From the NCBI GenBank assembly GCA_020536535.1, contig JAHLWZ010000498.1:1-64000 (forward strand): a stretch of DNA of 64,000 nucleotides. Direction: 5' to 3'. The position numbers were made by a program, and so were the translations under genes. Position 1 is the first letter of the stretch; every line of letters starts with the position of its first letter. The notes beneath the pieces were generated by a model. It was not told the DNA's origin, ran no database searches, and was given only the letters and a program-made list of their open reading frames with translations. Below are positions 1,249-56,596 of the stretch, piece by piece. Origin of the DNA: Pelomyxa schiedti. Its lineage: Eukaryota > Protista > Evosea.

Positions 1249-1806
1249 TTAATCCAATACTACAAGAGAGCCTTTCTTTCTCCAGTGCTCTCTGAGTGGG
1301 AATTTGAAAGAACGTTTCATTACCCAGAAGTGTTTGAGGCGAGACCACAAGTGGAAATCCCCGACTAGAAGAAGCAATAGCAGGGCAAAGAGAACAACTA
1401 GCATAGGAGCAAAGGCCTGAAAAATGTTAATAACTGGGCATTGGGGGTGGTTTACCTCCACATAGAATTTTATTCTCTTGGAGCCCTCTAATTTAAGGCA
1501 AAGTAGAATCTCAATAGCAATGAAAGGGCACAATGCCAGAAAAACTATCGCAGTCATCAAAAGGCCAGAGCTCACCCAGTTTGGATTCCTTAAGATTGAA
1601 TTTAAAGGGTGTTGCTTGTAATTTGATACGCACTGATAAAAGTGAACATCACACAGTGTGAATGCACTCACAAAAGCACCTGCATTCATGATCCACAGCG
1701 GAGAAAATACTGCCCAAGATCCCCACTGAGTTATTCCTTGCAATCTCAGCATGGACATGATCTAGTAGCATTAGTAATTGACATCAATTAAAGAGGGGAG
1801 TACCAA
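1249..1806 (-). pseudogene. 5'-truncated duplicate of the last exons of the F-box/TMEM185-like gene at 54014-56596
   Basis: Near-identical to 54014-54566 including two introns; homology stops abruptly at about 1806 and the new upstream sequence puts a TGA in frame just before the retained splice donor. Confidence 0.85.
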
Positions 1807-4835: not shown

Positions 4836-6137
4836 CTAGTGCTTCTTGGTGGCCCAAGCAGGCACCTGCAATAAGGGGCAGTTGCACTCGACGCATAATT
4901 GGCGGACGGCAAGTGAAACACCGGACAGGCACAAGCATAGTGTAACGCCAACGACTGCGAAGGGAGCAACATCAATGAAAAGTCCCTCGGCTCCTTGTGG
5001 GGAAATAAGATGGCTGACTACGGAAACGACTGAGTACCTCTGTGACCCATCCACAACAACAAAGCAAGAGAAGTAAACAACCAAAGCACTGCCACGAGTA
5101 GAAAGTGAAGGCAGGTTATACCTAGATTTTTGTCATTTTAGTAAAAGAGAGGCAATAACCTTTAGGTTCTATTTTTGCATGCAAACGTTTGTCTATAAAG
5201 TGCACAGCACACAACACCGACAGGCATCCATTTGTTATAACGAGTGACCATCCATGAACTTTAATCAAAAGCAGCCACAAAACACTATTTAAAAGATACT
5301 TTGAGCTCAATCCAAAACCTCATTGAGAAGAGATAGGTACCTCCAAACCAGTTGCGCAGATAGAGCCCATAACTCTGAAATGTATGAGCTTCGGCACAGA
5401 TTCTTCACTCTCCGAATATCCATGATTATTTGCCAACCAGACAACTCAAAAACAAGATAAGACTCTAAGGTTCGCGGGCAACATACCACAATAACTAAGG
5501 CGACCAGAATTGCTGGACCAAGAGGTATTCCGGCAACAATCAAGCTCCATATGTACTGATTGGTGGCCGAAACTCCAAAGATACACAGGCATGCTATTTC
5601 AGCTTGCAGAAGCGAGTCCTCTCCTATCACACATATAAGGAAAATCCACACAAGGTGATGGATTGTACCTTGATCTTCCCCAGTGTGCAAAGTGGCCCAT
5701 GTGCTGGTAACTGCACTCCACGGTCCCACAGTCCCGGCAATAACCCCAAGAGTACTAGAAAGGCTGACTCCAAGCACTTTCACCAGCAAGGTAGATGCAA
5801 ATACAACGAAAACAGTGTCGCTGCCGTTATCCAGCATATCGCCAAGTGCACACGCGCAACCAATTCTCCGTGCATGAACGCCATCTACGCCGTCGCATGC
5901 GATGTAGACCGCCACTGACGCACAGAGCAAACCACAAATCAAGGCATGACCATATGGCAGTAGCGTGAAAAAAGCCAGTGAGCACAGCAGGAACTGCACA
6001 CAACCACCGAGTGTGATTGCGTTGGGTGCCAGTGACAGCGGAACAAGATCTTCCAGTCTATGATACGCGAGATCCATTCCACAACACAACCAAGATCCAG
6101 CGACATCCATTACCGGCCTCGTGTACGTGACCTTCAT
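4836..6137 (-). CDS. CDP-alcohol phosphatidyltransferase (choline/ethanolamine phosphotransferase-like)
   Basis: Motif DGVDGVHARRIGCACALGDMLDNGSD and APNAITL; many TM segments; 3' exons inferred to stop at 4836. Confidence 0.85.
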
Positions 6138-6449
6138 TCTTGATGCAAAAAGAAAGAACCAACTGTTGGCACTCTGCAGGGAATTGGTGCCTTTTTTGTT
6201 TAGACAGGTCTTTTATTACCTTTTATTACCTCTAACCCTACGAAATATCCACTGCCTGTTCAGCCACACAAAGAAACATCCCCCAGAAAAAAGACAGTTG
6301 CCAAAAACCCAATTTTTAGTATTTTCTGTGCACTTGTAGTACTATATGCACACTCGCTTCCCCCACTCTAGAACAGTTTGCCTCTCCTCCAACAATCTGG
6401 TCCATTTTGTACCCCAGCAGGTGTAGTGGGGCGCACACATACCGGCGCA

Positions 6450-7427: not shown

Positions 7428-8916
7428 ATGGACAAGAGCCTGGCGCTGCGCGTGGCCTCGGTGTTCGTTGTGCTCGCGGCGTCCACGAGCGGGGTGTGCT
7501 TCCCGCTGGTGTCGCAGCGCCTCGTGCCGCACTTCAGCAGCAACAACGTGGTGTTCTCGGCGGCGCGCGCGTTCGGCGCCGGCGTCATCCTCGCCACGGC
7601 GCTCATCCACATCCTGCCCGAGGCCGTCTCCGTCGTGGGCGAGTGCTTCCCCGACGTCGAGTACCCGCTGGCCTTCGCCCTGTGCCTCGTCGCCATCGGC
7701 GCCACGCTGCTGCTCGAGCAGTCCACCGCCGCCTTCTTCGCCGCCCGGCACCGCGCCTCGCGGCACAACTGCGACTCGGGCGGCAACTGCAACCAAGGCG
7801 GCGCCGTGATTGCTGGCTTGGGCGAGATGCTTCCCACAATGGACACCTCGCCGGTTCCTGCTTCTACCGCTGCTACCACCTCTTCTTCGACTTCCGGCTC
7901 TGATTCTACTTCGGGCTTGAATCCGGATTCTGGGTCTAATTCTACTTCTGTTGTGCCAAACTCAGCTTCTGAGGCAGCAAGTGCGACTTCGAAGTCTAAT
8001 TCTACTACTGTTACCAGAGAGGGAGGAATTGAGCATAAGAAACACCAGCATTGTGATAATGATGTGGAGGCAAACGTGGGTGGTGACTCAGACTGCAAAA
8101 AGCACATGGAAGAATTGGAGGTTGTGACTGAGGAAAGAATGGCTGCCGTCGGTCACCGTTTGCACCACCACCATCAACACCAGCATAGCGGCAAATCAAA
8201 GTCTGCTGAGCCGGGTTATTTCTATTTCCCTCCTTTTTTTCCCCTAGAATTAAACTATATTATAATGCGGTTGTTTCTGAAATGTGATGCTGATTCATCT
8301 GAAGAAGCGGAACAGGAATGGATAGTTGCACATATTTTGGAACTAGGAGTAGCTCTACACTCAGTGATCATTGGGCTTGCCCTTGGTACTTCAACTGAAG
8401 TGGCTGATGTACGAGCACTTCTGATAGCACTGTCTTTCCATCAGGTAACACTATCATACCCTATCCCATTAATTCACAGCAATAGTTTTTTGAGGGCATT
8501 GCCTTGGGTGTATGCATACTAGAAGCAAAGCTCAGTTTATTAAGGACAGTAATCATGGTATTGATCTTCTCTATTACAACACCTATCGGGATTGCTGTTG
8601 GAATTGGCGTGGGCTCTACAAATAGAACAGCAGAGGGAGTACTTGAATCACTTGCTGCCGGAATTCTTCTATACATGGTATCGTGCCGTTTTTCTTTGGC
8701 ATGAGTTTTAACCGGGTTTTTTTTTTGAAAATTCTGCATTCTAGTCTCTGGTGGTATGTTCTCATCAGTCTCTAAAGTTACACTAAATACACCTAACAGG
8801 ATATGGTTTCTGATGACTTCCAGAAGACCGGGGAGAAAATACTATCACGCTTTGCGTTGGTTCTGGCATTTTTGTTTGGCGCCAGTGCCATGGCCATTAT
8901 TGGAATGTGGGCTTAG
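7428..8916 (+). CDS. ZIP family zinc/iron transporter
   Basis: AFGAGVILATALIHILPEA; HILELGVALHSVIIGLALG; ALSFHQ/FFEG; His-rich loop HHHHQHQH; ends GMWA*. Confidence 0.95.
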
Positions 8917-10795: not shown

Positions 10796-13700
10796 ATGAG
10801 TGTTCATGAAGTTTGCAACGGCGTCGTTTTCGTTTGTACTGTAGCTGCAGCGTTTTTGTTGTGGCCATCGTTTGCTGCTGTGGTCTTAGTAGATGAATCC
10901 AACATGTACGGATGCGACGTCTCTTCTTATTTCGATCCGGCTACGTTGAATTGTCTTCCTTGTGGTGGAACCAACCTAACTCGTGATGACACAACAGGTT
11001 GGCATTTTTTTCTTTTGCAAAGGTTTTTGCGTATTTTCGGTTCCAGTTAAATTGATGCAGGATTGAGCTGCACATGTGCAAATGGGTGCGTGTGGACAGA
11101 TGAAACTACGTGCACCCCTTGTGGCTATGTATGTTTGCATCAATTCTGAGATGAGGAGTGACACTACTCTTTAGGGGACTGTACCATCAGCTGATAACCT
11201 AGTCTGCGTGTTGTGTGCAGCTTCGACACTTGGAGTGGACACAGACTTGGATGACTGCCTGTGTGCTGAAAATGCTATTGTAGGTGCGTGCTATTCCTAC
11301 TCTCATGACTTTTTGTTGTTATTTAACAACAAACCCCAGTTGAATTTGATGATAATGGAGACAGACTTCTCGAAAAAATTTGTAGGGTGTGTCCTCAAGG
11401 CTATACTCCAGAGTCTTCATCCCACCCACATGTGTGCTCATCTTGCTCTGATTCGTCTATGATAAGTGGCTCTGATGGAACATGCTCCTGTGTATCCCCA
11501 ACCATTTTAGTACGTTGTCCATTCTTACTTCCTAGTTTATAATTGCTGTCAAGGTTGGAAACAAGTGCATTGATTCAACAGTAGCTAACGGATTGGGTGA
11601 CTACAGCTCTGATGCAACCTGCACAGTAAACTACAATTCTGTCAAGGAAGACGATTCAGCTAAAGCTACATCATTGGCATTCGTAAGTGATACCTTTAAG
11701 CAATATCAAGATGGTGCTGTGAAGCTCTGTACGGTAACTGCTCTACCTCTCGCCTATGCCACATTCTAACTACTGCAGCTTGAAGATGAGCAGTACTGTC
11801 AGATTCTTGGAAATCTCTGTGTGCTGCAAAACTATGACGAGACTTCCTCCGCATGTGCGCAGTATTCATTGCTTGCCACTCAGCGGAAACCTGCACCTCC
11901 TGGTCCCAACAATATTCCGTATTGGTATCTCCGAATTACCCTGCACAAACCATCTTAAAAATTCAGGCCAACTGGCATGCCATGGCTACTATATTCAAAT
12001 GTAATTGCTACAGATATTCTGACAGCTCCAACTATTCAAATGAAAGTAGCTTTCAAAAATAACAGTAAATCGGTGCGGTGAGCATTCAGTTCTTTTAGTT
12101 TTTTCTTGATTTATTTTAATTACTTTTATAAACTCACTTCACTCCCGCAATCCACTCATTTTCTTGATTAGGAATTTGATCTCCTGTACTATCTTGCTCA
12201 GTACTCACTAGAAGGGGAATTCTTGGGATTCACACCACTCACGAGTCAATTTTTGGTATTTGGAATTCCTTCACCTCTGTACTGATTTTTTTCTTTTCTT
12301 ACAGCTCTGTGGTTCCTTGGACCCTTCCTTCTTCAGTTATGGGACGAATCAAAAAATTATTTGTAAATATGATCTGTCCCAGTATCTGAATGAAGCATCA
12401 CAAACTGTATTCTACGACTTATGTGAGCGAGCTAAAAGTTACTGTGTTTTCCTTATTGTGAGCAGATATTACCGATTATGGGAATAGTTCACTACAACCC
12501 GTACCAGTTCTGCTCATGAATTATCAGAGAGTTGTCCCTTAATCTTTCCTGTGCCACAACTAAACTGCGATATCAAAAAAAAAAAAAAAGTCTGGCTCCT
12601 ATGTAAATGATGACATGTCAACTGCTCAACTGACACGGCGATTCTTTATGATTGACACCTTAAGTGGTCGCAACCCTATAAACTCAGCTCCACAAGTCAT
12701 CAGATTCCCACGAGAAATCAAATTAGAGTAAGGTTAAATGTACACCTCAACATATTCACGTCCCCTTCAAGAGTGACTCCTAGGGATGGGGATCCCCAGT
12801 ACATGAATACTCCCCTTCTGACTTTGAAATATGAAGAAAGATCCAGTTCTGTAATTCTTTCTGGACAATCGACAACTGAAGTGCGAACTCTTTTTTTCTT
12901 TATTCCATAAAGGGTATTTATGTCCTATAGCTCACAGTGGAGATTATCTATCATGACGAAGGTGACACTTGGCAGCTACTTCAGTTAGTCTTGTTGATAT
13001 TTGGAATGGTCATCACAGGGATATGGTGGATTTATCGGCTCGTTTGCTGGATGAGGAAGAATCCCGGGGCATCTGTCGCTGTGTGTCATTTACCATTTAA
13101 TACGCTCGTTGTAATCTATCATCAGTTACTAGTTCAAGCAGTGGTACTTGCAATGGATACATTTGCAAATGTCTTTTTCTTCATAATGCTCGGCGAAACT
13201 GCATATATGTACGTCTACTACAAGGGACAATCCGAAGTTAAATTCTTACTTCCGATGTTGCAATCGGGGTTTTATCAATTTGAAGTTACTCTTGTAATAG
13301 CATGGACAGGGAAGGTATCATCACTGTACGAGCAATTAGACGACTAAGAATCATTTTTTGCATTTTGGCAGGCCTTAAGGATACTGTACCTTATATACTG
13401 GCACAGCTCGATAAATATCTTTTTCGTGGATTGGGAAAAATCACGAGGCAAAGTACCAATTAAAGGATCTAATAGCCCCCCAGTTCCTGTTCCTGTTGGG
13501 GTATGGCGAACTCTCCTAGCTGTAAATGAGTGGAACAGAGCACAGGTTCTACCAACTCAATGTGCTTTTCTACATTAAAACAATAAAACAAAGAATGCTA
13601 GGATGGTTTCACCTGGTCTAACTCTTGCAATTTTAATGTGCGCTCTTCTTGGTCTCAACGGCTTGTACCTTGCAAAACCGCAGCCTTCAAGGGAGCACAG

Positions 13701-20924: not shown

Positions 20925-22601
20925 TCAACCGCCGCGTATGTCTCGCTCGTTGACTATTCTCAGTGGGTGCGCGTATGGGCTGTTCCAGTCCCGCGAGAAT
21001 ACCTTGTGGTGTAAATGGGCAGAAATGTGGTCGCTCACAATGACCATCGTCACTCCCGCTGTTGTCTTTGGGTTTTTGTTTTTGTTAGTGGTGGTTTCGC
21101 GAGAAAAAGGGTGTGACTTGCCTTGAAGTAGTCTGCCGTCCAGTTATTGTTGCTTATGTACGCCTCCTTTTCTGTTACCATAAATTTTGCGTGATTCACC
21201 CTAGTGAAGGGCACTGGATCGGAGCCAATCATATCTTGAGATATTGGAAGGCGTAAGAGGAGACTGTCGTATGTACCTGGGACAACAAACCACCTTACAG
21301 AGGTGTTGTTGAGAGAATTGAGAGAGTTCACGTACTGATGCATCCCCTTACTGGTGTGATTCCACATGCTTACAAGCAATCGTACTTGCACCCCTCTAAA
21401 GGCAGCTGATCTCAAGGCATCGTCGATTTCGGGCCAGTAGTAGTTGGTTGATGCATACAGCGATGCAGGGCGATAGTCCATCACTTCGATATCTGCATTT
21501 AGACTCAGTGTTCACTGCGTGTACAACTAGTTACCAATATATTTTGTGGCCCTATTAATGATATCAACTGTCGTTCCATCAGCTGAGTCTCTCCCTGGAG
21601 TAACAAACTGTGGTGGGGAGACACTGAAGTATACGGCGGACTTCATGTTGCCATTGAATGTTATATAAGCTGGATTCTTGGAATTATATTTTGTTTCAAA
21701 CATCGAGAACCATCTAGTGAAGTTAGGTTTGTTATCTTCACGTCATTACTTTTTAGGAAGAGTTTGCGTTTCAGATGCTTTCCACCACATTTCAAACAGT
21801 TTCATCAAGTCTTTGGCCAGTTCAGGGCAATTCTCTACCACCGCTCCCAGCTCTTTCACTGGAAATACGATCAAAGACAACATTGGATACTTCCTTCATA
21901 CCTTGGGTCAATGAGCGCCAATCCATATTAGCACTTCCCAAGTAGAAATGTGCTCTATCCACAACTATAAGCTTGGTGTGGAAGATTCCACTTGATATCT
22001 AAGTACTTAGGCAACGCGAGGACGAACACATGGCCTCTTACATCAGGAGACAATCCCCTAAAGTCCAGAGATCTTACATCCGCTACTCCCTCTTTCATCA
22101 GTTCCAGAGGATCTGATCCTGGGAAAGGGCCACCTGGTTTATTCTACACCCCTTTGTTCAATCCGTACATTCAGAATTGGTAACTACCTGTATGATCCTT
22201 ACTTTTACTCCTCTTTGCAATGCGGCCTGTCTGATCTCCTGGTAAATGCTTTGTCCCTTCCAACCAGCGTGCAGAGAATCCACCAGGGTTCCATCACTCA
22301 GAGTCCAGTAAAATTCCGCAAAATCAAGTGTATGGGAAGCCCCTTTCATGAGATTCATCCACGCTTCATATGTACTATTGGCAGTTGGGAGTAGGAGTTG
22401 CTCTGGTATACTTTCCACAATCGTGATTTTCCTGCGTTATATTCATACTTTAGAACCGAATATGCACTGCTTCTTCAGTGATGGCAGGAGAACATACGGC
22501 CCACTTCCAGCTACGGCCAATGAGACACAACAGCACTGAAGAGCAACAACAATCAGCAGAAGACTTACAACGGCAGAAGTAGCTGAAGACGATCGAGTCA
22601 T
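20925..22601 (-). CDS. PLD3: PLD3/PLD4-family phospholipase D-like exonuclease, secreted or lysosomal
   Basis: Signal anchor; ESIPE; [22 protein letters not shown]; [20 protein letters not shown]; [10 protein letters not shown]. Confidence 0.93.
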
Positions 22602-36100: not shown

Positions 36101-38695
36101 CATTAAGCAACCATTTTTCCCTGAGAAGTACGTCAAAGACAATGCACGAGATCTTTTTGGGCAATTCCACAACCTCATCTCTGAGACACTAATGTCACTT
36201 GCACTGTATCTTCATAGGTGGTTATCCCGTAGCTTTCTTTAATTCAGTCTCATTGTAATAAAACCTAAGATCGGAGAGGATCGTTCTCAAAGCACCTGAC
36301 GCACCACCAAAACACCAGTACTTCGCAATAGAGTGGAGCCCACTTGCATGCAAATTCGTCAATACCAAGAGGTTCAACTTCATGAAAAACGTGAGCAAAC
36401 TTGTTCTGCGGTCACTTTGTCGAACTCGTATCAGGTATTCTTAAAGAACAACATTTTTTCTCGGTTAAGTCAAATTTAAGATACCATGAGTGCAAGGATC
36501 AGTACCAAATTGAGTCTTTGTGGTCGAAAGTCTCTGCCTTGGCTTCTGGATCCCACTCGTTTTCTGATGAACTTACCTATAATACAAATGTCAAATTGGT
36601 TGGGATTTTATCCAAGCTCACCAAAGTACATCCGTTCCTGCTTTCCGTCATCGTATAACAGCGAAGAAAGGTTTCATCTGAGCGACCTTACCACTGGCAG
36701 CAGTTCTGTATTGAGCGCAACCCAATACCTTCAGTGATCTTATTTGCACTGAAGCTTGCAGCTGCCGCCGTTGATGACTCACCACTTTTCTTCCTAAAGC
36801 TTCTTTCCAGCTCAGTGTGTGTGGAACAAGTGCAAGTGCGCCTTCCGAACCACATTTTAGTGGATGTCAACTTATAACATACAGAATACCAAAGTTGAAG
36901 CCGCAACTGAAAAACCTACTGCCTCGGCCTCACCTACCCCTCTCAGTCTTATAATCGAGACCCCAAAGCTGGAGAAGAAAGATTTGTCCCACCCACCACC
37001 GCCACCTGAGAAAGATCCAAAGAAAAAAGAGAAGCTTCATGGACTGGAAAGAAAGGGGAAGATTCATAAAGAACGCAGAGTACGACACCATATATCACTC
37101 GTCTCACCCTCCTAACCACATCAACAAAGGAAGCAGAGTTAGCTGTTAAAATTGATCGGATGAAAGTAGAGATACCCGTTTTCATTGGGAAACTCTCAAA
37201 TGACCCTACATTCTTGAGTCTCCTGTCAAAACTCGTTAATGTGTTTGTGTTGGATTTCAACAACTCTGCAGTTCGGATAGAAGCATGGTAACAGCTCTCA
37301 TTTCTTTTTCCAAATTCACAGGCTCCAGTTCTTATATTAAGGGTTTTTGGCAAATGAGTCCACCAGATAAGAAGAAAGTTATCTCAAACCTTCTTTGGGA
37401 AAAGATGCCCCAGGCACCTGCTTATGGCCGCAATTCCACACAATTTGTGGAATTGCTGATATCTTTGGTGTCACAGGTTTACCCCTTTCTTATCATAAGC
37501 CCTATTTATAGAACACTATACAGTCACCCGAGGCTGGGGTTGGTCATGAAACGGAAATGTTTAATTTATTATCTGAACAAAATCGCTTGTTAAACGACCA
37601 TCCAAATGCTTTCATTTACCAAGCTCTTGAATCTGTACTCGATTTCGACGGGTATTTCTTCCTTTAACTCGTTTCCTTGTTTTCATGAGCAACAGATACT
37701 ATTTAGAGAACGAACCTTGTCTCGTTTGCAATGACCCTGAAGTGCCTTTTACACCAATCAAATTATCAGCTATCAAAGCAGAATTGAAATTTACCGATTG
37801 CACACAGGTGGCTCTTTCGTTTTCGCTTTTTTTTTTCTTTTTTTGCTTTAATACTTCGTAGATTGTAAAGTTACAGAGTAGCCACACAATACAAAGTGTG
37901 CTGATAAGAATTTCTGACATGAAAAAGTCGAAGATGGTCAAGTCCATCAACATCTACTACAACAATAAGGTAGAAGTTTGTGTCGAAGGTTCTTTTTTTT
38001 TAACAAATTTAGCCTGTTGTTGACCTTTCCGAGCTTAAAGGAAAATGGTCACAATGGAAAAAAGCTAAAGTATGTCCTGTTGCACAATCACAGACTGAAG
38101 TGAAGGGCGACTTCGCTATACCAATAACAGCAATAAATCTTTTGATCGAATTTGCTAGTTTTTATGATAACACCCAAGTACCTTTTTCATTCTCTCAGAC
38201 TAAAATTCTTATTCATCACTACAGCCAGCAACCGAGAAACTACAATGCCCCCGTTGCAGCAAAGTGGTAACAGACAAACATGGAATATGCCGTCAGTGCC
38301 ACGAAAATGCATACCAATGCCGCCAGTGTCGCAACATCAATTATGAGCACCTTGATGCGTTCCTGGTCTGCTCTCTCTCTCTTGTTCTCACTCACAACGC
38401 GTTTTCCAACCCTCCGTTCTAATCTTCCTTTCCAATACAGTGCAATGAATGTGGCTATTGTAAGTTCGCGAAGTTTGAAATTACTCTGTCTGCCAAACCA
38501 AGCTTTGCCGCAGAAAGAATAGAGACAGACCAAGACATGAAGAAGGGTCTGGACACAATAGACACCGAGTCACAGAATGCCCACAAAAGGTACCCCCACA
38601 AAGCAACATCCCAACAAATACTCAACATTCTCCACAGGTATTCACAGCTGGCCTCTTTCAGGACTCCCCTCGCTAGGGTGGCCAGTCACATGTGA
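24108..38695 (+). CDS. UBR4: UBR4/p600/BIG-like giant protein, C-terminally short
   Basis: UBR box ([14 protein letters not shown]), beta-propeller, DOC-like [10 protein letters not shown] finger ([28 protein letters not shown]), [50 protein letters not shown]. Confidence 0.93.
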
Positions 38696-38970: not shown

Positions 38971-40210
38971 ATGGAATCCAGCATTGACCTTTGTTTCTAC
39001 GACGTAGATATGTGCTTTGGTGTCGTCGGCCCTATCGACCGTTGGCAGTTGTATTGTCATTGTTGTCTGTATTTGGTTGCGACGTCTGCATCTCGTATAC
39101 TGGAGGAGCGTTTTGTGTATGGCAATAGCGGATATATCCCTCTGTATAAGCATTGTGAACTCTTTCTCCCTTTTTTTTTTTTGCCCACAAGTTTTTCATT
39201 TACTTTCGTTTCGCTTTTCTCACCTGTTCATTGTGAAAATTTCTTACTCCTTTCTTTGCCGGTTGCAACACCAAGTTTATTGCCATTACTGCTAAATCAC
39301 AGGGTGTCGAAGACACTTGGGTTTGCACTTTTTCCGGTTAGTTCGTACTACACTTCCTTCCTCCTTTTTCCTCTTTGCTGCAATTTGCATACCCATGTAA
39401 TTTCTTTGATCACCCAGGAATTCTGAACAATATCTTTTTCCTGTCTTCACAGATATGGACAGACTTTCTGGGTCTGACTCTCCTATGGATCACTCTGAGG
39501 CGAGCTGTACCAGGCATAATCATGGAATTAGGGTGTCATACAGTAGCCTGGGGATTACCCCTAACACTCTCACTTCTGGCTCTAGTGAGGCATGATGGTT
39601 ATTGTTATGGTACATCATGGTAAACAAGCTACCTTTATCTACTAAAATCACCTTTTGGTTAAGGTGCTGGATCAACATTGGTGAATACTATGGGATGGCG
39701 TGGGGCTTATCAATGGTGTGGGAGTGGCTTGCAGTACTCTTCGCCATAATTGTATACTGTACTCTGGGAGCAATTGCTATTAGGCATAGATGGAAGGAAG
39801 GAACTTGGTCAACTGTTGCGCCAAGGGTAATTTCTTTGTCCCTCCCTTCAATACTCAACCGAAAGCATAGATAAGTATTATCAGAAGAAGAAAAGAAAAT
39901 TATGTCATACCTGCCCTGAGGCAAATTGTTCTGTACCCTTTCATCATGGTTCTCCTGGTGTATGCGCGCCCAAAATAACTGCATAATACTCAATCATCAC
40001 AGGGTAGCAGGATTGGTTGACCACGATGGAACTTGGCAGCGGTCATTTGGATCATTTGTAATGCCACTGCAAGGCTTTCTCAACTTTGTTGTGTTTGTAG
40101 TCACAGCCCAAGTTGACAAAGATAAGGATAAGCTCATACCTGCAGTCAAGTCATCACACGGTACAGCAGTCACTGAAATGGAGATGGTTGTACAGACAAA
40201 TGACAGCTGA
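38971..40210 (+). CDS. 7-TM GPCR, cAMP-receptor-like/GCR1-like
   Basis: VLCMAIADI, C..SGILNNIFFLSSQIWT, HTVAWGLP, SWCWI, LYPFI, PLQGFLNFVVF. Confidence 0.85.
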
Positions 40211-40534
40211 GCATTTGGAAGTATCACCAGTATACAGTCTGTTTATTTATCGTCTAAAAAATTTCCTGTTTTGTGCATTAAATATTGTACTAATTTTTGG
40301 TGCTGCGGTGAGTGACGCGAAGATGGTCGTTGTGCGTCCTGTTGTCAGGGGTCAAATTTGAGTGACGCGTCAGTTGACATGACAGTAGTTCCCTGCACCT
40401 GCGGCATTTAAAGTCGCTGGATCTCAGCACAAAGCAAACAAAAAAAATCCGCAATCGAGGCGGCATTCCAATACTAGTACTATAGACACTACAAGACAAT
40501 GCAAAGCCTATCGTCCGCGGCAGCAGTTCACAAG

Positions 40535-41413
40535 ATGGCAGACACAGTGGAGGCGGGAGACCCACTCACAGCCAAGATTGAGGAATGGGCACGTGATTGC
40601 AAGGAGAAGAGGTGCTGTGCAATTGGTGTGCATTCCCAACCACCTTTCACTCCTTGGGTTGGAGGTAATTGTACACCAGGAATCAACAACTACTTGCGAG
40701 AGACTCTTGTCGATCCTGATTACTACATTCAATCGGTGTGCCTCTATGTTCTTATTTTGTACCAATAAACCAAAACTCAAACGTACCCAGGGCAAAGTTC
40801 TCGAGGAACCTCCAGGTGAATGCCCAACCAACAAAGGTGCCCCGATGTTGTTCTCCAAGCGTCACTTGGCCATGAAGGGGACTGCCGGCGTCATGTGCGT
40901 TCTGTTTTCTTCTTCGTTTCTGCCTCATTGTCATAAGGTCATACAACATAATGGGCCGTGATTCAAGGAAGCTCAAGATGTATTGCATGTGGAGTGTCCC
41001 CGAGGTTTTGGGCCAAAACACTTTCAACGTGGTCATATCCGAGGTTGGTCATTCTCACTACCCATACGCAATCAAGATTACTTCTAACATCAAATACCAC
41101 GCCACGTAGCCAATGGAAGATGAACTCTCAGAAGACACGTGGCGCAAGTTGTACAAAGATGCCAAATATGCCAAAGGTAGCAAACAAACAAACACAGCAA
41201 CAACCAATAACTGATTCATCCCTCTCCCCCACTCCCACTCAACAAACAAACTTCTAATCCTTGAACAGATGATCAATTCGCACTCGAGTTTGAGCATTAC
41301 CGCTGCACATGCAAAATGGTTCGTTGTGTTTCCCATTCATAGCGGTTTGACTCCCCACACAGACAACCGACTCTCTGGCTTCACTCACTTTCAACCTCTG
41401 GTATCAATCCTAA
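40535..41413 (+). CDS. Actinoporin-like protein (cytolysin/lectin beta-sandwich fold), 7 exons
   Basis: Spliced product: KRCCAIGINNYLRETLVDPDYYIQSGKVLEEPPGECPTNKGAPMLFSKRHLAMKGTAGVMSYNI..MYCMWSVPEVLGQNTFNVVIS..WRKLYK..YRCTCKMTTDSLASLTFNL; colinear with actinoporin motifs RKIAVGVDN, YFRSG, P..VP, GAVGVLAY, FSVP, N.WNV, M..SGHAILEI. Confidence 0.8.
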
Positions 41414-41486: not shown

Positions 41487-41857
41487 TTATATTGAACGAA
41501 CAATACCGATAAGAATGAAGACAACAGCTAGAATAGCAGTGGACTGCCACACATCCGCAGTATCAGGAACATTGGGTTCAACGTATCTTGGGGGGCGGGG
41601 TCGGAGCACTGTATTCACAGAGACGGTACGCTGCCGTCGTTGTTGTTCCCTCTCCCTCTCCATCTGGGCCATATCCATCTCCCTTTGCATCCTCATGCGC
41701 TCTTGCAACTCAAGCTGCCTGGCAATCTGCACATCCCTGAGCATCCTCATCGTCCGTGCAACTTCCTGCTGCCTAACCCGCTCTGGGTCATATACAACCG
41801 CACGCATGCTCTCTTGTTGGCGCTGCTGCCAAGGATAGCAAGTTGTGGCCGGGGACC

Positions 41858-41888
<31 letters not shown>

Positions 41889-42194
41889 GGAAGAATAGGG
41901 GTCGCCCCAAGCACTCCCAATCTCGCCAAGTGGCTGGGGGAGGATCTGGCCGGGCGCGCGCGGCGTCGGCCTCGACTGAGGAGGAGGCAGGGGTCTGGCC
42001 GGCGTTCTGCCAAATCGAGGTGGAGCCGCCGCAGTCATCGTCGTCGTCGTAGCTAGCGTCGGCAGCGGCGGTGGGGCAGGCGCAAGCTTGGGCTGGAAGG
42101 GGAACGGCGGGATGCCAGGCAGTGGAGGAAGCCCCTCGGCGTGGACCCTGCGATAGTCACTCGTATTCAGGGGGGTCGAGGTGGGATTCGACAT
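41487..42194 (-). CDS. Pro-rich hypothetical protein with coiled segment and C-terminal TM anchor
   Basis: Single 235-aa ORF with GC-rich 5' end; ends STAILAVVFILIGIVRSI. Confidence 0.7.
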
Positions 42195-42297
42195 GGTGAT
42201 TACTCGAGGGTTTGTGTGGCGGCGGGTGCTGCGGTGTCGCCTTTTGTTTGGAGTTTTTGGTGTTGATGGGGCTTTTTTTTTTTTGGTTTGTGTTTAA

Positions 42298-42626
42298 GGT
42301 GCAACTGCATGCCGATTTTGAAATCAAGCCAAGTCGACGAGTCCTTACATTTGTGTGATCAGTGTATTTGGAACACTCATGGATGTCTCGCCTTTGGTCC
42401 GTGTGAGTGCATGGCCTCGATTGAGAACACCTCATTTCGGGAACTACACATTTCCATAGTGCCAATATAGAATGGTTGCCTAGCGAGCACTGAAGCAGAG
42501 TCCGAGCTGCTGTGCCCCTTCAAACCCACCCTCACGGTTCGGGGAGGAGACTTCAAGCAGTGACCTCGCCCAACTCAAGCCGTAACAACACAACACCCAG
42601 TGACATCCCTCCGGCAGCAACGCCCC
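42298..42626 (-). ncRNA. Candidate structured ncRNA or structured leader (about 330 nt), family unassigned
   Basis: Complementary termini, GGAUGUC/GACAUCC long-range helix, five or more tiled hairpins; G-U pairs favour the minus strand; no convincing ORF. Confidence 0.45.
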
Positions 42627-42916
42627 AAAGTAAAAAAAAAGTGGCCAAACGAAAAGTGCGTTCCACCGTGCGTGGTTGGTTATTTTTTCTCTTGATTCGG
42701 AATTCCTGGAATACGCGGTTTGCGTGATGGCCGGCCCTTCCTCTCCAGGAAGAATACAAATCACTGCAAAAATATTTACTTTCGTGTACGGATGGTTTTG
42801 CGAGATGATTTTCCTCGCATTTGGTAATTGTGGCTTGTTCTTTATTGTCAGGTGGTACACAAAATGATGGTGATGGATACCGCGAGCTAAATTGCAGAAG
42901 AGATGTTCCACAACGG

Positions 42917-47936: not shown

Positions 47937-48036
47937 NNNNNNNNNNNNNNNNNNNNNNNNNNNNNNNNNNNNNNNNNNNNNNNNNNNNNNNNNNNNNNNN
48001 NNNNNNNNNNNNNNNNNNNNNNNNNNNNNNNNNNNN
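47937..48036. other. Assembly gap (100 N)
   Basis: Run of N. Confidence 1.
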
Positions 48037-54013: not shown

Positions 54014-56596
54014 TTAATCCAACACTACAAGAGAGCCTTTCTTTCTCCAGTGCTCTCTTAGTGGGAATTTGAAAGAACGTTTCATTACCCAGAAGTGTTT
54101 GAGGCGAGACCACAAGTGGAAATCTCCGACTAGAAGAAGCAATAGCAGGGCAAAGAGAACAACTAGCATAGGTGCAAAGGCCTGAAAAATGTTAATAACT
54201 GGGCATTGGTGGTGATTTACCTCCACATAGAATTTTATTCTCTTGGAGCCCTCTAATTTAAGGCAAAGTAGAATCTCAATGGCAATGAAAGGGCACAATG
54301 CCAGAAAAACTATCATCAACAGGCCAGAGCTCACCCAGTTTGGATTCCTTAGGATTGAATTAAAAGGGTGTTGCTTGTAATTTGATACGCACTGATAAAA
54401 GTGAACATCGCACAGTGTGAATGCACTCACAAAAGCACCTGCGTTCATGATCCACAGCGGAGAAAATACTGCCCAAGATCCCCACTGAGTTATTCCTTGC
54501 AATCTCAGCATGGACATGATCTAGTAGCATTAGTAATTGACATCAATTAAAGAGGGGAGTACCAAAAAGACAAATATGGCTGTTGAGCAACCAGCTAAGG
54601 AGAGTTTGAGAACCTTATTTTCAAGATCCTTTACAATGACCTCTCGTACAAAAATAATAATTATCAGTGCATTTGCAATAAGAAGTGGGGCAAAGGTGAA
54701 GCATAAGCCATACGCAAACACACCCACCTGGCACATTTTAATTCCGAACTCCCCAAGGAACAGCAAAATACCTCAAGATAAATGCAGGCCAGCGGAGGAA
54801 ACAGGGTCATTATAATCGTCAGGGAGAACCATATGGTGCACTCCACCTAGAGAGGCTTACATGGTTGACACTGGCATTAGGAATACCTTATCATCACTGA
54901 AGCAGGAACAAAACAAGTTAATCCAACCGAATAAGCAGCGCGACATAAACTCTTTGTCCATGAAGTCCCTCACAAAGAAGTACCACCACAGTGCTGTGGA
55001 TCCAAGCACCATTAATGTGATGAACCAGCAAGGTATAAAGACTAGACCCCTGTTTATTTGTTTAGATTTGGCTTTTGTAGGACTCCAAACCAGTTCCACT
55101 CTATGAATTTATCCATTTTCAACACAGTAAAGCAACCGAGGAGAAGCCACAATATTACACTGGCGTAGTCAACAAGTGGAGAATTAAATAGCCGCAGGAA
55201 GAATACAAATTTATATGAAACCATTTCCTTTTCCTGTTAGGAGAAAGGACAATGAATAGATTGCAATACTTTCAAATCGAGAAGTTTCTCTTCAAATAAA
55301 AAGTTTAACTGCAATGCATGTTAAAGGTAGGTAGGCAACAGTAATTTGTAATTGCCTGTTTGTATTCGTCATATTCCTGCTGTTCGGCTTCTGTTGAACC
55401 TTGCACCTAGGAAGAAGTCAGAGAATATATATTTTTTCTTTATTTAAAAAAGGCATACCACACGCCGTCTGTGTGACATCTTCCACTTGCGAATTAACCA
55501 TTTTGTTTTATACAACTGCTTATAATCTCTGTTTTCCATGCAAATATCGGTTTCCTAAAATCCTTTATAAACACTTTTGGGTGGTTTGTTATTGTCTGGA
55601 CACACATCGATTTCAGGGGTCAATTCAGCCAAACATATTTCCCGCCAAAGTCTGTGATCTTCAGAAGCATCCCTCCAGCGATGTGACACAAGCGTAACTG
55701 GAATAGTTATTTGCACTGATTAAAAAAAACCTCAAGAAAGAAACCTGAACAAAGGTCTTGCATCCCCAAAAATGAGAATATAAGCATGCAAATTTCGTAA
55801 GGTATTATTTGTAAAGGATCCTGAAAACCTTGAGTATATAGGCAAAACCCAAAAGACTGATTCACACCATCGCATTTCGTAACCTCCTCCTCTGCTCACA
55901 GGAATCAGAACCGTAACGCAAGTGACCTCTTTTTGCAGTTCTTTTGCTTGTTGGTGTCGTCGGGGGAGTAAGAGGGATTGCGCTCGTAATGACAGGTATC
56001 AGCTCATTTCCCAAAACGGTAATACCCCCAGAAGAAGTTGACGACGACGTACTCGTTGTAGTGGTGGTCGTTGTGGTTGTAGTTGAATTTGAAAACCCCG
56101 TGGATGCACTGCAAGGAGCTTCACAGTATTGAGTGGTGTCACCGCCATAATAATCGTCATCACATTGCTTCTGGAAATCGTCGTCATCATCAGCAGGGTC
56201 GTATTCGCCGTCCTCCTCCTCGTCGTCGTCCGAGTCGCTTCGTTTGCGAGAGCGCCCGCGCCGTTTTCCACGGGGCGCGGCGGCGCCGGCGGCCGTGTCG
56301 AGAGCAGTGAGCAGCGATTCCGGGGGCGAAGCGGCGGCCAGCACGCCGTCGAACACGTCGAGGATGTGGCTGGAGAAGCTGTGGGAAGCGTCGCTTTTCG
56401 GCGGCGGGCTGGAGTGCGCCGACTGACGCGTGGCGTAGCGAGACGACGAAGGCGACGGCGACGGCGACGGGGACGGGGAAGGAGACGAGTCGTGGGAGGA
56501 GATTAGAAGTGCATTTTCCGTGTCGTCGCCCACGTCGTCGTTGCTGCTGCTACTGATAAAGCTAACAACCGAGTGCAGCGCCCCTTCCATCATCAT
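54014..56596 (-). CDS. F-box protein with TMEM185/FAM11-like multi-pass C-terminal domain
   Basis: F-box DPLQIIPYEICMLIFSFLGMQDLCS/VTLVSHRWRDASEDHRLWREIC; repeated TM hairpins (VFIPCWF, FAPLLI, WAVFSPLWI, LCLKLEG..FAPMLV). Confidence 0.8.

What the first reader, a model, noticed from the sequence alone, without database searches (positions are those of the whole stretch)
40535..41413. Intron-split actinoporin-like (pore-forming toxin fold) gene in an amoeboid protist
Seen: no ORF-track entry shows it, but six canonical introns join into one protein of about 170 aa. Knowledge: it is colinear from end to end with actinoporins such as equinatoxin II (RCCAIGINN~RKIAVGVDN; YIQSG~YFRSG; KGTAGVMSY~TGAVGVLAY; MWSVP~LFSVP; NTFNV~NWWNV; KMTTDSLASLTF~FMNSSGHAILEI). 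I know this family mainly from cnidarians, other animals and some land plants. It has no signal peptide, has a short helix-like N-terminus (PLTAKIEEWARD), and has lost the aromatic YDYNWY sphingomyelin-binding loop. Inference: a cytosolic membrane-binding or lytic effector with altered lipid specificity, possibly used in prey or endosymbiont control or in cell death.
Basis: partly seen in the sequence, partly recalled or inferred. Interest (0 to 1): 0.8.

Follow-up and report, generated by a model that had tools for sequence, protein, structure and literature searches.

The report
Actinoporin-like protein family in anaerobic amoebae
An intact seven-exon gene of the amoeba Pelomyxa encodes a protein predicted to have the fold of sea-anemone pore toxins, but it lacks their aromatic lipid-binding loop and has a polar front helix, so it likely binds membranes inside the cell more than it punches holes.

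Summary
The gene is real. Six GT..AG introns leave seven exons that match database protein P0005 (Pelo_6252, Pelomyxa schiedti, 186 aa) exon by exon. An RNA contig is spliced at the same six places, but it comes from the 88%-identical paralogue P0001, so expression of this copy is not shown. The model (pLDDT 93.8) matches bryoporin and FraC (Z 25.8). P0005 itself has no Pfam hit, but 50 of 72 scanned proteins pass the PF06369 cut-off. Relatives: 8 Pelomyxa genes, Mastigella, Mastigamoeba and unnamed two-domain proteins, on one side of a moderately supported branch (SH-aLRT 90). Most of this group replaces the aromatic sphingomyelin loop with a Glu-bearing one and has a charged N-terminal helix (hydrophobicity 0.22 against 0.607 for a sponge actinoporin candidate). 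Best reading: a leaderless, non-lytic or weakly lytic binder of anionic membranes (0.5); a mytiporin-like pore former is the rival (0.3). My paper searches found no amoebozoan actinoporin-like proteins; loss of sphingomyelin specificity is already known elsewhere. The scan's earlier notes held nothing on this.

The parts
40499..40625 (+). Exon 1 from the annotated ATG 40499 (second in-frame ATG at 40535): polar N-terminal extension, predicted helix 1 (residues 21-33), start of strand 1
   Evidence: Exact match to P0005 residues 1-42; DSSP of model; paralogue RNA covers 40494-40624
40626..40679 (+). Intron 1, 54 nt, phase 1, GT..AG
   Evidence: skipped in paralogue RNA
40680..40735 (+). Exon 2
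   Evidence: exact in P0005
40736..40790 (+). Intron 2, 55 nt, phase 0, GT..AG
   Evidence: skipped in paralogue RNA
40791..40894 (+). Exon 3: basic loop 84-90 and the conserved G91-x-x-G94 strand
   Evidence: exact in P0005; conservation; charge
40895..40937 (+). Intron 3, 43 nt, phase 2, GT..AG
   Evidence: paralogue RNA joins across it with a short divergent stretch (table 5c)
40938..41043 (+). Exon 4: W114-S-V-P117 and the remodelled, aromatic-free loop that in actinoporins binds sphingomyelin
   Evidence: exact in P0005; alignment to bryoporin; loop counts
41044..41109 (+). Intron 4, 66 nt, phase 0, GT..AG
   Evidence: skipped in paralogue RNA
41110..41176 (+). Exon 5: predicted helix 2 (139-147), basic, keeps W142 and Y146
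   Evidence: exact in P0005
41177..41268 (+). Intron 5, 92 nt, phase 1, GT..AG
   Evidence: skipped in paralogue RNA
41269..41318 (+). Exon 6
   Evidence: exact in P0005
41319..41362 (+). Intron 6, 44 nt, phase 0, GT..AG
   Evidence: skipped in paralogue RNA
41363..41413 (+). Exon 7, last strand and stop codon TAA (41411-41413)
   Evidence: exact in P0005

Best explanation
This intact seven-exon gene encodes a 186-residue protein predicted to have the actinoporin fold, which likely stays in the cytosol, likely docks on negatively charged membranes through a basic patch instead of sphingomyelin, and likely makes no pore or only a weak one. Shown: gene structure, homology, loss of the aromatic loop, polar helix, basic residues at the predicted lipid-binding end, and a family in three Archamoebae genera. 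Inferred: the beta-sandwich would sit on anionic lipid (the inner face of host vacuoles, or the surface of cytosolic endosymbionts) through loop 84-90 and helix 2, with W142 and Y146 at the interface; the group's Glu-bearing loop would select a headgroup other than sphingomyelin; helix 1 would stay packed on the sandwich, pinned by the group-specific W30. The protein would then mark, coat or tether membranes, as non-lytic relatives such as zebrafish Dr1 and nakanori bind membranes without lysis.
For: Fold: model pLDDT 93.8, pTM 0.88, helix + sandwich + helix; Foldseek top hit bryoporin E 1.1e-13, TM 0.83; Z 25.8 for FraC and bryoporin. A model of tandem relative P0006, from an alignment of 11 group members only, gives the same hits. 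Loop: no aromatic residue where bryoporin has F105, Y107, Y110, W113; canonical P-[FYW]-[DNS]-[YFW] in 2 of 38 group rows against 16 of 52 others, and Pro followed within 3 residues by Glu in 22 of 38 against 2 of 52. Helix: residues 13-35 have hydrophobicity 0.22 and 9 charged residues, against 0.607 and net charge 0 for sponge Hi2 (PMC8778704, passage) and 2 charged residues in Fav (counted by eye); 0 of 27 group rows reach 0.5 against 21 of 49 others. W30 in 64% of 36 group rows and none of 52 others. N-terminal extensions inhibit EqtII pores (PMC9645577 discussion); P0005 has 12 extra polar residues, and second domains of tandem relatives sit behind a whole first domain. Basic patch: net +3 and +4 in the two segments, 3 aromatics against a median of 6. 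Core under purifying selection: 7 of 7 listed substitutions in exons 3-4 are synonymous.
Against: Helix 1 is kept at full length and is amphipathic (moment 0.43, above the 0.337 quoted for EqtII), whereas the non-lytic Dr1 has an incomplete helix. Mytiporin-1 lost sphingomyelin specificity and has a polar extension, yet forms hexameric pores on POPG. Five of eight pocket positions checked are kept or conservatively changed. The helix comparison relies on a fixed offset from strand 1, rows are related (so the p-value means little), 12 of 39 group rows and 4 of 53 others lacked a full segment, and 28 of the 49 comparison rows also score under 0.5. The basic patch is weaker in the group as a whole (median +2 and +1.5), and that loop 84-90 faces the membrane is recalled. 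Cytosolic location rests on crude hydropathy; leaderless secretion was predicted for many mytiporins. No activity was measured, and this copy's own transcript was not seen.
Confidence: 0.5

Rival explanations
1. A true alpha-pore former with changed lipid target, like mytiporin-1: it binds anionic lipid electrostatically, oligomerises and inserts helix 1, acting on bacterial prey, endosymbionts or their vacuoles.
For: Full-length amphipathic helix 1; basic lipid-binding end; closest structures are all pore formers; 8 annotated Pelomyxa genes, four of them 87-98% identical to this one over the aligned part; 4 of 6 listed exon-1 substitutions against paralogue P0001 change the residue; P. schiedti holds endosymbionts in the cytosol and in vesicles (PMC10579272, passages); mytiporin precedent.
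Against: Helix hydrophobicity 0.22 with 9 of 23 residues charged; polar N-terminal extension; tandem relatives with a tethered second helix; a leaderless pore former for anionic lipid would threaten the host's own inner leaflets (inference).
Confidence: 0.3
2. A cytosolic lectin-like or anti-predator protein: the sandwich binds a glycan or glycolipid of an animal grazer after the amoeba is eaten, as fungal fruit-body lectins of the same superfamily do.
For: Leaderless; tandem duplication would give avidity; fungal cytosolic defence lectins such as XCL are described this way (PMC6272156, passages); fold similarity to XCL and SRL lectins.
Against: Lectins match much less well (Z 11.6 against 25.8); no lectin family hit; the phosphocholine-type pocket is partly kept.
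Confidence: 0.12
3. This particular copy is a silent or decaying duplicate; only its paralogues work.
For: The only RNA contig laid on the gene is from paralogue P0001, while neighbours' RNA contigs match the window closely.
Against: Frame and all twelve splice ends intact; synonymous-only core differences; assembled contigs drop variants and show presence, not absence; one RNA run of one study was available.
Confidence: 0.06
4. Contaminant DNA from an animal, plant or fungus.
For: Single-cell data; known relatives are mostly animal.
Against: A 19.8-kb DNA contig runs from the upstream genes into the gene's 5' end; introns have the same 43-92 nt GT..AG style as five RNA-confirmed neighbour introns of 43-48 nt; nearest named relatives are from Mastigella and Mastigamoeba.
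Confidence: 0.02

Closest known systems
Bryoporin (moss Physcomitrium patens, PDB 7PUD)
   Same: Best sequence hit in the PDB (E 0.021 single, 1.9e-4 profile) and best Foldseek hit (TM 0.83, rmsd 1.8); acidic pI (5.5 here; 5.3 there).
   Different: Bryoporin keeps the sphingomyelin-binding aromatics, lacks cysteines, and forms octameric pores; P0005 lacks the loop aromatics, has 7 Cys and 19% identity.
Sea-anemone and coral actinoporins (EqtII, FraC, StnII, Fav; Pfam PF06369)
   Same: Same predicted sandwich with two helices (Z 25.8 to FraC); the strand-core Gly, Asn, Pro and Tyr positions are conserved.
   Different: No aromatic loop, polar helix 1, no hydrophobic leader, 17-22% identity; P0005 has no PF06369 hit.
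Molluscan actinoporin-like proteins (mytiporin-1)
   Same: Changed sphingomyelin loop, polar N-terminal extension, lineage-specific expansion, most members without signal peptide (PMC9645577).
   Different: Mytiporin-1 has a signal peptide and measured hexameric pores on POPG; no sequence comparison with it was made here.
Zebrafish Dr1 and mushroom nakanori (PF21230, PDB 5H0Q)
   Same: Actinoporin-type proteins that bind membranes without lysis; nakanori Z 19.6.
   Different: Dr1 has an incomplete N-terminal helix; nakanori binds sphingomyelin/cholesterol and has 12% identity; P0005 has no PF21230 hit.

Membership tests
Actinoporin-like proteins (broad, fold-defined) | Beta-sandwich flanked by two helices | tested here: met
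   control model from group-only alignment
Actinoporin-like proteins (broad, fold-defined) | Sequence homology to the actinoporin domain | tested here: met
   Profile of 4 Pelomyxa proteins finds bryoporin E 1.9e-4 and Fav E 0.007; nearest named relative P0008 (46% identical) passes PF06369 at 27 bits, cut-off 25; Atlas top clusters PF06369 at 0.95
Actinoporins in the strict sense | Passes Pfam PF06369 gathering score | tested here: not met
   P0005: 0 families at E 0.01; P0001-P0003: 0 at E 10
Actinoporins in the strict sense | Aromatic sphingomyelin-binding loop with P-[WYF]-D motif | tested here: not met
   0 aromatics in the loop; motif as given in PMC8778704
Actinoporins in the strict sense | Phosphocholine pocket residues (Ser, Val, Ser, Pro, Trp, Tyr, Tyr, Tyr) | tested here: inconclusive
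   By alignment 4 of 8 identical, 1 aromatic exchange, 3 changed (list)
Actinoporins in the strict sense | N-terminal amphipathic helix hydrophobic enough to span a membrane | tested here: inconclusive
   Moment 0.43 (met), mean hydrophobicity 0.22 with 9 of 23 charged (far below 0.607 of Hi2)
Actinoporins in the strict sense | Basic pI and no cysteine | tested here: not met
   pI 5.5, 7 Cys; acidic members such as bryoporin exist
Actinoporins in the strict sense | Secreted through a signal peptide | tested here: not met
   Highest 10-residue hydropathy in the first 40 residues 0.94, against 2.4-3.3 for four comparison proteins with hydrophobic leaders; no signal-peptide predictor was available
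Actinoporins in the strict sense | Sphingomyelin-dependent oligomeric pores and haemolysis | not testable with these tools
   needs bench assays
Actinoporins in the strict sense | RGD-type oligomerisation motif | not tested
   alignment in this region was too gappy to map
Nakanori-like (PF21230) | Passes PF21230 | tested here: not met
   no hit for P0005; structural match weaker than actinoporins
Aegerolysins and fungal fruit-body lectins | Sandwich without the N-terminal helix | tested here: not met
   P0005 has helix 21-33; Z about 12; absence of the helix in PlyA from PMC8067419

The most novel reading that the evidence does not exclude
Archamoebae keep an ancient, leaderless branch of the actinoporin family, re-aimed from sphingomyelin to anionic lipid, that acts on the membranes of the bacteria and archaea living in their cytosol: a pore-toxin fold used to manage an endosymbiotic consortium, with an origin older than the split of amoebae from animals and fungi.
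Probability: 0.15. Interest if true: 0.8.

Novelty: new variant of a known kind. Interest (0 to 1): 0.45.

Why it matters
Actinoporin-like proteins are reported from animals, mosses and some fungi, with structural look-alikes in oomycetes and bacteria. A family in three Archamoebae genera extends that range to Amoebozoa and bears on whether the domain is older than animals or moved by gene transfer. The group's shared changes (Glu-bearing loop, charged helix, W30, tandem domains) suggest a natural non-sphingomyelin, possibly non-lytic version, useful for asking what the fold did before venoms and as a possible lipid probe. Pfam misses the Pelomyxa proteins, which is why they are annotated as hypothetical.

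Tried and rejected
No whole genome is held for this window, so paralogues were counted from protein databases only. Pfam on single exons and on exon 1-2 read through intron 1: 0 of 4 hits. No second copy in the 64-kb window (tblastn). One peptide pattern against prokaryote genomes: 14 matches, none confirmed; this is a narrow test and does not exclude bacterial relatives. The last homologue search (alignment A4) returned 7 proteins and no new named organism. The Atlas holds no model, so no structure search there. The careful tree did not finish; the quick tree was used, and no one-clade test was run, so no donor or order of events is claimed. The mitochondrial L32 hits (E 0.09-0.4) were treated as chance; they do not appear among the structural hits. 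Absence of RNA for this exact copy is not taken as evidence of silence. Earlier scan notes: nothing by sequence; the word 'actinoporin' occurred in no finding.

Full report
Observation. The region holds a + strand gene of seven exons. Six GT..AG introns of 43-92 nt leave 525 coding bases from ATG 40535 to the stop at 41411-41413, with no internal stop; an in-frame ATG at 40499 makes it 186 codons. A homologue search with exons 1-2 returned three Pelomyxa schiedti proteins, and a cluster look-up gave P0005 (Pelo_6252, KAH3761906.1), in which all 7 exon translations occur exactly.

Splicing and expression. Four runs of one study hold the stretch, one of them RNA. Its 626-nt contig skips five introns exactly and joins across the third with 21 letters that read as the start of exon 4. 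It differs from the window at 41 places over the seven exon pieces and has another 3' tail. The tool listed 13 of these differences; the four that change a residue give the residues of paralogue P0001, and the 7 in exons 3-4 are all synonymous. So a paralogue with the same intron positions is transcribed and spliced, and the core is under purifying selection; this copy's own transcript was not seen. Neighbouring genes' RNA contigs match the window with 0-4 differences and show five introns of the same style, and a 19.8-kb DNA contig links the upstream genes to the gene's 5' end, so contamination is unlikely. P. schiedti is intron-rich with 98.41% GT-AG introns (10.1101/2021.05.20.444135, passages).

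Fold. P0005 has no Pfam hit. Its best PDB sequence hit is bryoporin (E 0.021); a profile of four Pelomyxa proteins gives bryoporin 1.9e-4 and the coral actinoporin Fav 0.007. The Atlas ranks PF06369 clusters first at 0.95 for P0001. The model from a 45-row alignment has pLDDT 93.8 with helix 21-33, a strand sandwich and helix 139-147. Foldseek ranks bryoporin first (E 1.1e-13, TM 0.83), then EqtII, FraC and Fav; the independent aligner gives Z 25.8 for FraC and bryoporin, 19.6 for nakanori and about 12 for aegerolysins and fungal lectins. That alignment contained canonical actinoporin-like rows, so I also folded the tandem relative P0006 from 11 group members only: two domains of the same topology and the same top hits.

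Family. A profile search of 1.84 billion representatives gave 72 hits. Of 72 proteins scanned (P0005 and 71 hits), 54 match PF06369 at E 0.01 and 50 pass its cut-off. With this makes 8 annotated Pelomyxa genes, two of them fragments. Many of the nearest unnamed hits, on contigs of 1-4 kb, carry two domains in tandem. In a quick tree of 88 domain rows (4 short rows dropped, 3 proteins gave no row), 36 rows lie on one side of a branch with SH-aLRT 90: all 9 named Archamoebae rows, 24 tandem rows and 3 other unnamed rows; Pelomyxa plus Mastigella has 97. Support is moderate, the root is a midpoint, and the sample was drawn with a Pelomyxa profile, so no origin is claimed.

Anatomy. In bryoporin and EqtII, aromatics in loop L3 and helix 2 bind sphingomyelin (PMC9526159, section 4). 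P0005 has none in the loop. This is a group trait: the canonical motif occurs in 2 of 38 group rows against 16 of 52 others, and a Glu shortly after the Pro in 22 of 38 against 2 of 52 (the group list there includes three short rows added by hand). Of eight pocket positions, four are kept, one is an aromatic exchange and three are changed (list from PMC8778704 passages). Loop 84-90 and helix 2 carry net +3 and +4 although the protein's pI is 5.5. Residues 13-35, equivalent to the membrane-spanning segment, are amphipathic (moment 0.43) but polar (hydrophobicity 0.22, 9 charged), against 0.607 for sponge Hi2. None of 27 group rows with a full segment reaches 0.5, against 21 of 49 others; rows are related, so this is a trend and not a test. 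W30 occurs in 64% of 36 group rows and none of 52 others. No hydrophobic leader is present in P0005 or the 24 other group proteins checked (highest 1.83; some may be incomplete at the start).

Mechanism. I favour a cytosolic membrane binder that docks on anionic lipid and makes no pore or a weak one (0.5). Precedents: zebrafish Dr1 binds membranes without sphingomyelin specificity or lysis, nakanori is non-lytic (PMC8067419, passages), and N-terminal extensions inhibit EqtII (PMC9645577, discussion part 1). Against it, the helix is full-length and amphipathic, and mytiporin-1 forms hexameric pores on POPG despite a changed loop and a polar extension; a pore former on anionic membranes stays at 0.3. 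P. schiedti carries symbionts in the cytosol and in vesicles (PMC10579272, passages), which offers a target, but nothing here links the protein to them. A cytosolic lectin-type defence role (PMC6272156, passages) is given 0.12.

Novelty. Reviews and surveys list actinoporin-like proteins in animals, plants, fungi, oomycetes and bacteria (PMC12197748, section 4; PMC8778704, passages). Searches for actinoporin with amoebozoa (3 papers), protists (5), amoeb- (14 held, 13 listed) and for 'sea anemone cytotoxic protein' with amoeb- (0) gave no title or abstract on amoebozoan members; I saw most of these only as listings and checked the passage of one (PMC9157375, about anemone toxins used on Giardia). 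Broader searches showed 20 of 39, 20 of 365 and 20 of 2,265 papers. 'Amoeb' does not occur in the main text of four actinoporin-like surveys. The supplements held as text for four papers had no match; files not held as text, and subscription papers such as the original description of the superfamily, could still list amoebozoan members. It is an actinoporin-like protein by fold and homology, not an actinoporin in the strict sense, and a new lineage-specific variant of a known kind. Interest 0.45.

Noticed in passing
window 12931-13344 (+): Exon matching Meckelin/TMEM67 (PF09773, E 2.8e-12), a ciliary transition-zone protein, in an amoeba recalled to have poorly motile flagella.
   Followed up: no
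window 1252-1761 (-) and 54017-54520 (-): Two separate ORFs matching TMEM185 (PF10269), possibly paralogues 53 kb apart.
   Followed up: no
window 5310-6212 (-), 7428-8519 (+), 21053-21511 (-), 38423-38692 (+): CDP-alcohol phosphatidyltransferase, ZIP zinc transporter, phospholipase D-like and UBR4-like domains; 8 of 53 ORFs scanned had a Pfam hit.
   Followed up: no
window 41490-42293 (-): Convergent neighbour: Pro/Ser/Gln-rich frame ending in a hydrophobic C-terminal segment, like a tail-anchored protein; no Pfam hit; RNA contig at 41467-41815.
   Followed up: partly
window about 39500-40210 (+): Spliced upstream neighbour (RNA-confirmed intron 39960-40002); not identified.
   Followed up: no
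window 42207-42790: DNA runs differ from the window here (29 substitutions and 12 gaps in one 1665-nt contig): an allele or an assembly difference.
   Followed up: no
window 47937-48036: Run of 100 N, a scaffold gap.
   Followed up: no
protein P0002 (Pelo_4550): Has a 20-residue insert exactly at the position of intron 4, probably an intron left in by the annotation.
   Followed up: no
proteins P0017 and P0026 (Mastigamoeba balamuthi): P0017 has the domain followed by about 480 residues of other sequence with a Lys/Ser-rich tail; P0026 looks like a shortened tandem. Neither has a Pfam hit.
   Followed up: no
proteins P0024, P0050, P0053, P0073: Actinoporin-like domains fused to laminin G, C-type lectin, ricin-type lectin and M10 peptidase domains; organisms not looked up.
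   Followed up: no
proteins P0019 and P0080: Unnamed proteins that fall on the Archamoebae side of the tree yet keep the aromatic loop; possible intermediates.
   Followed up: no
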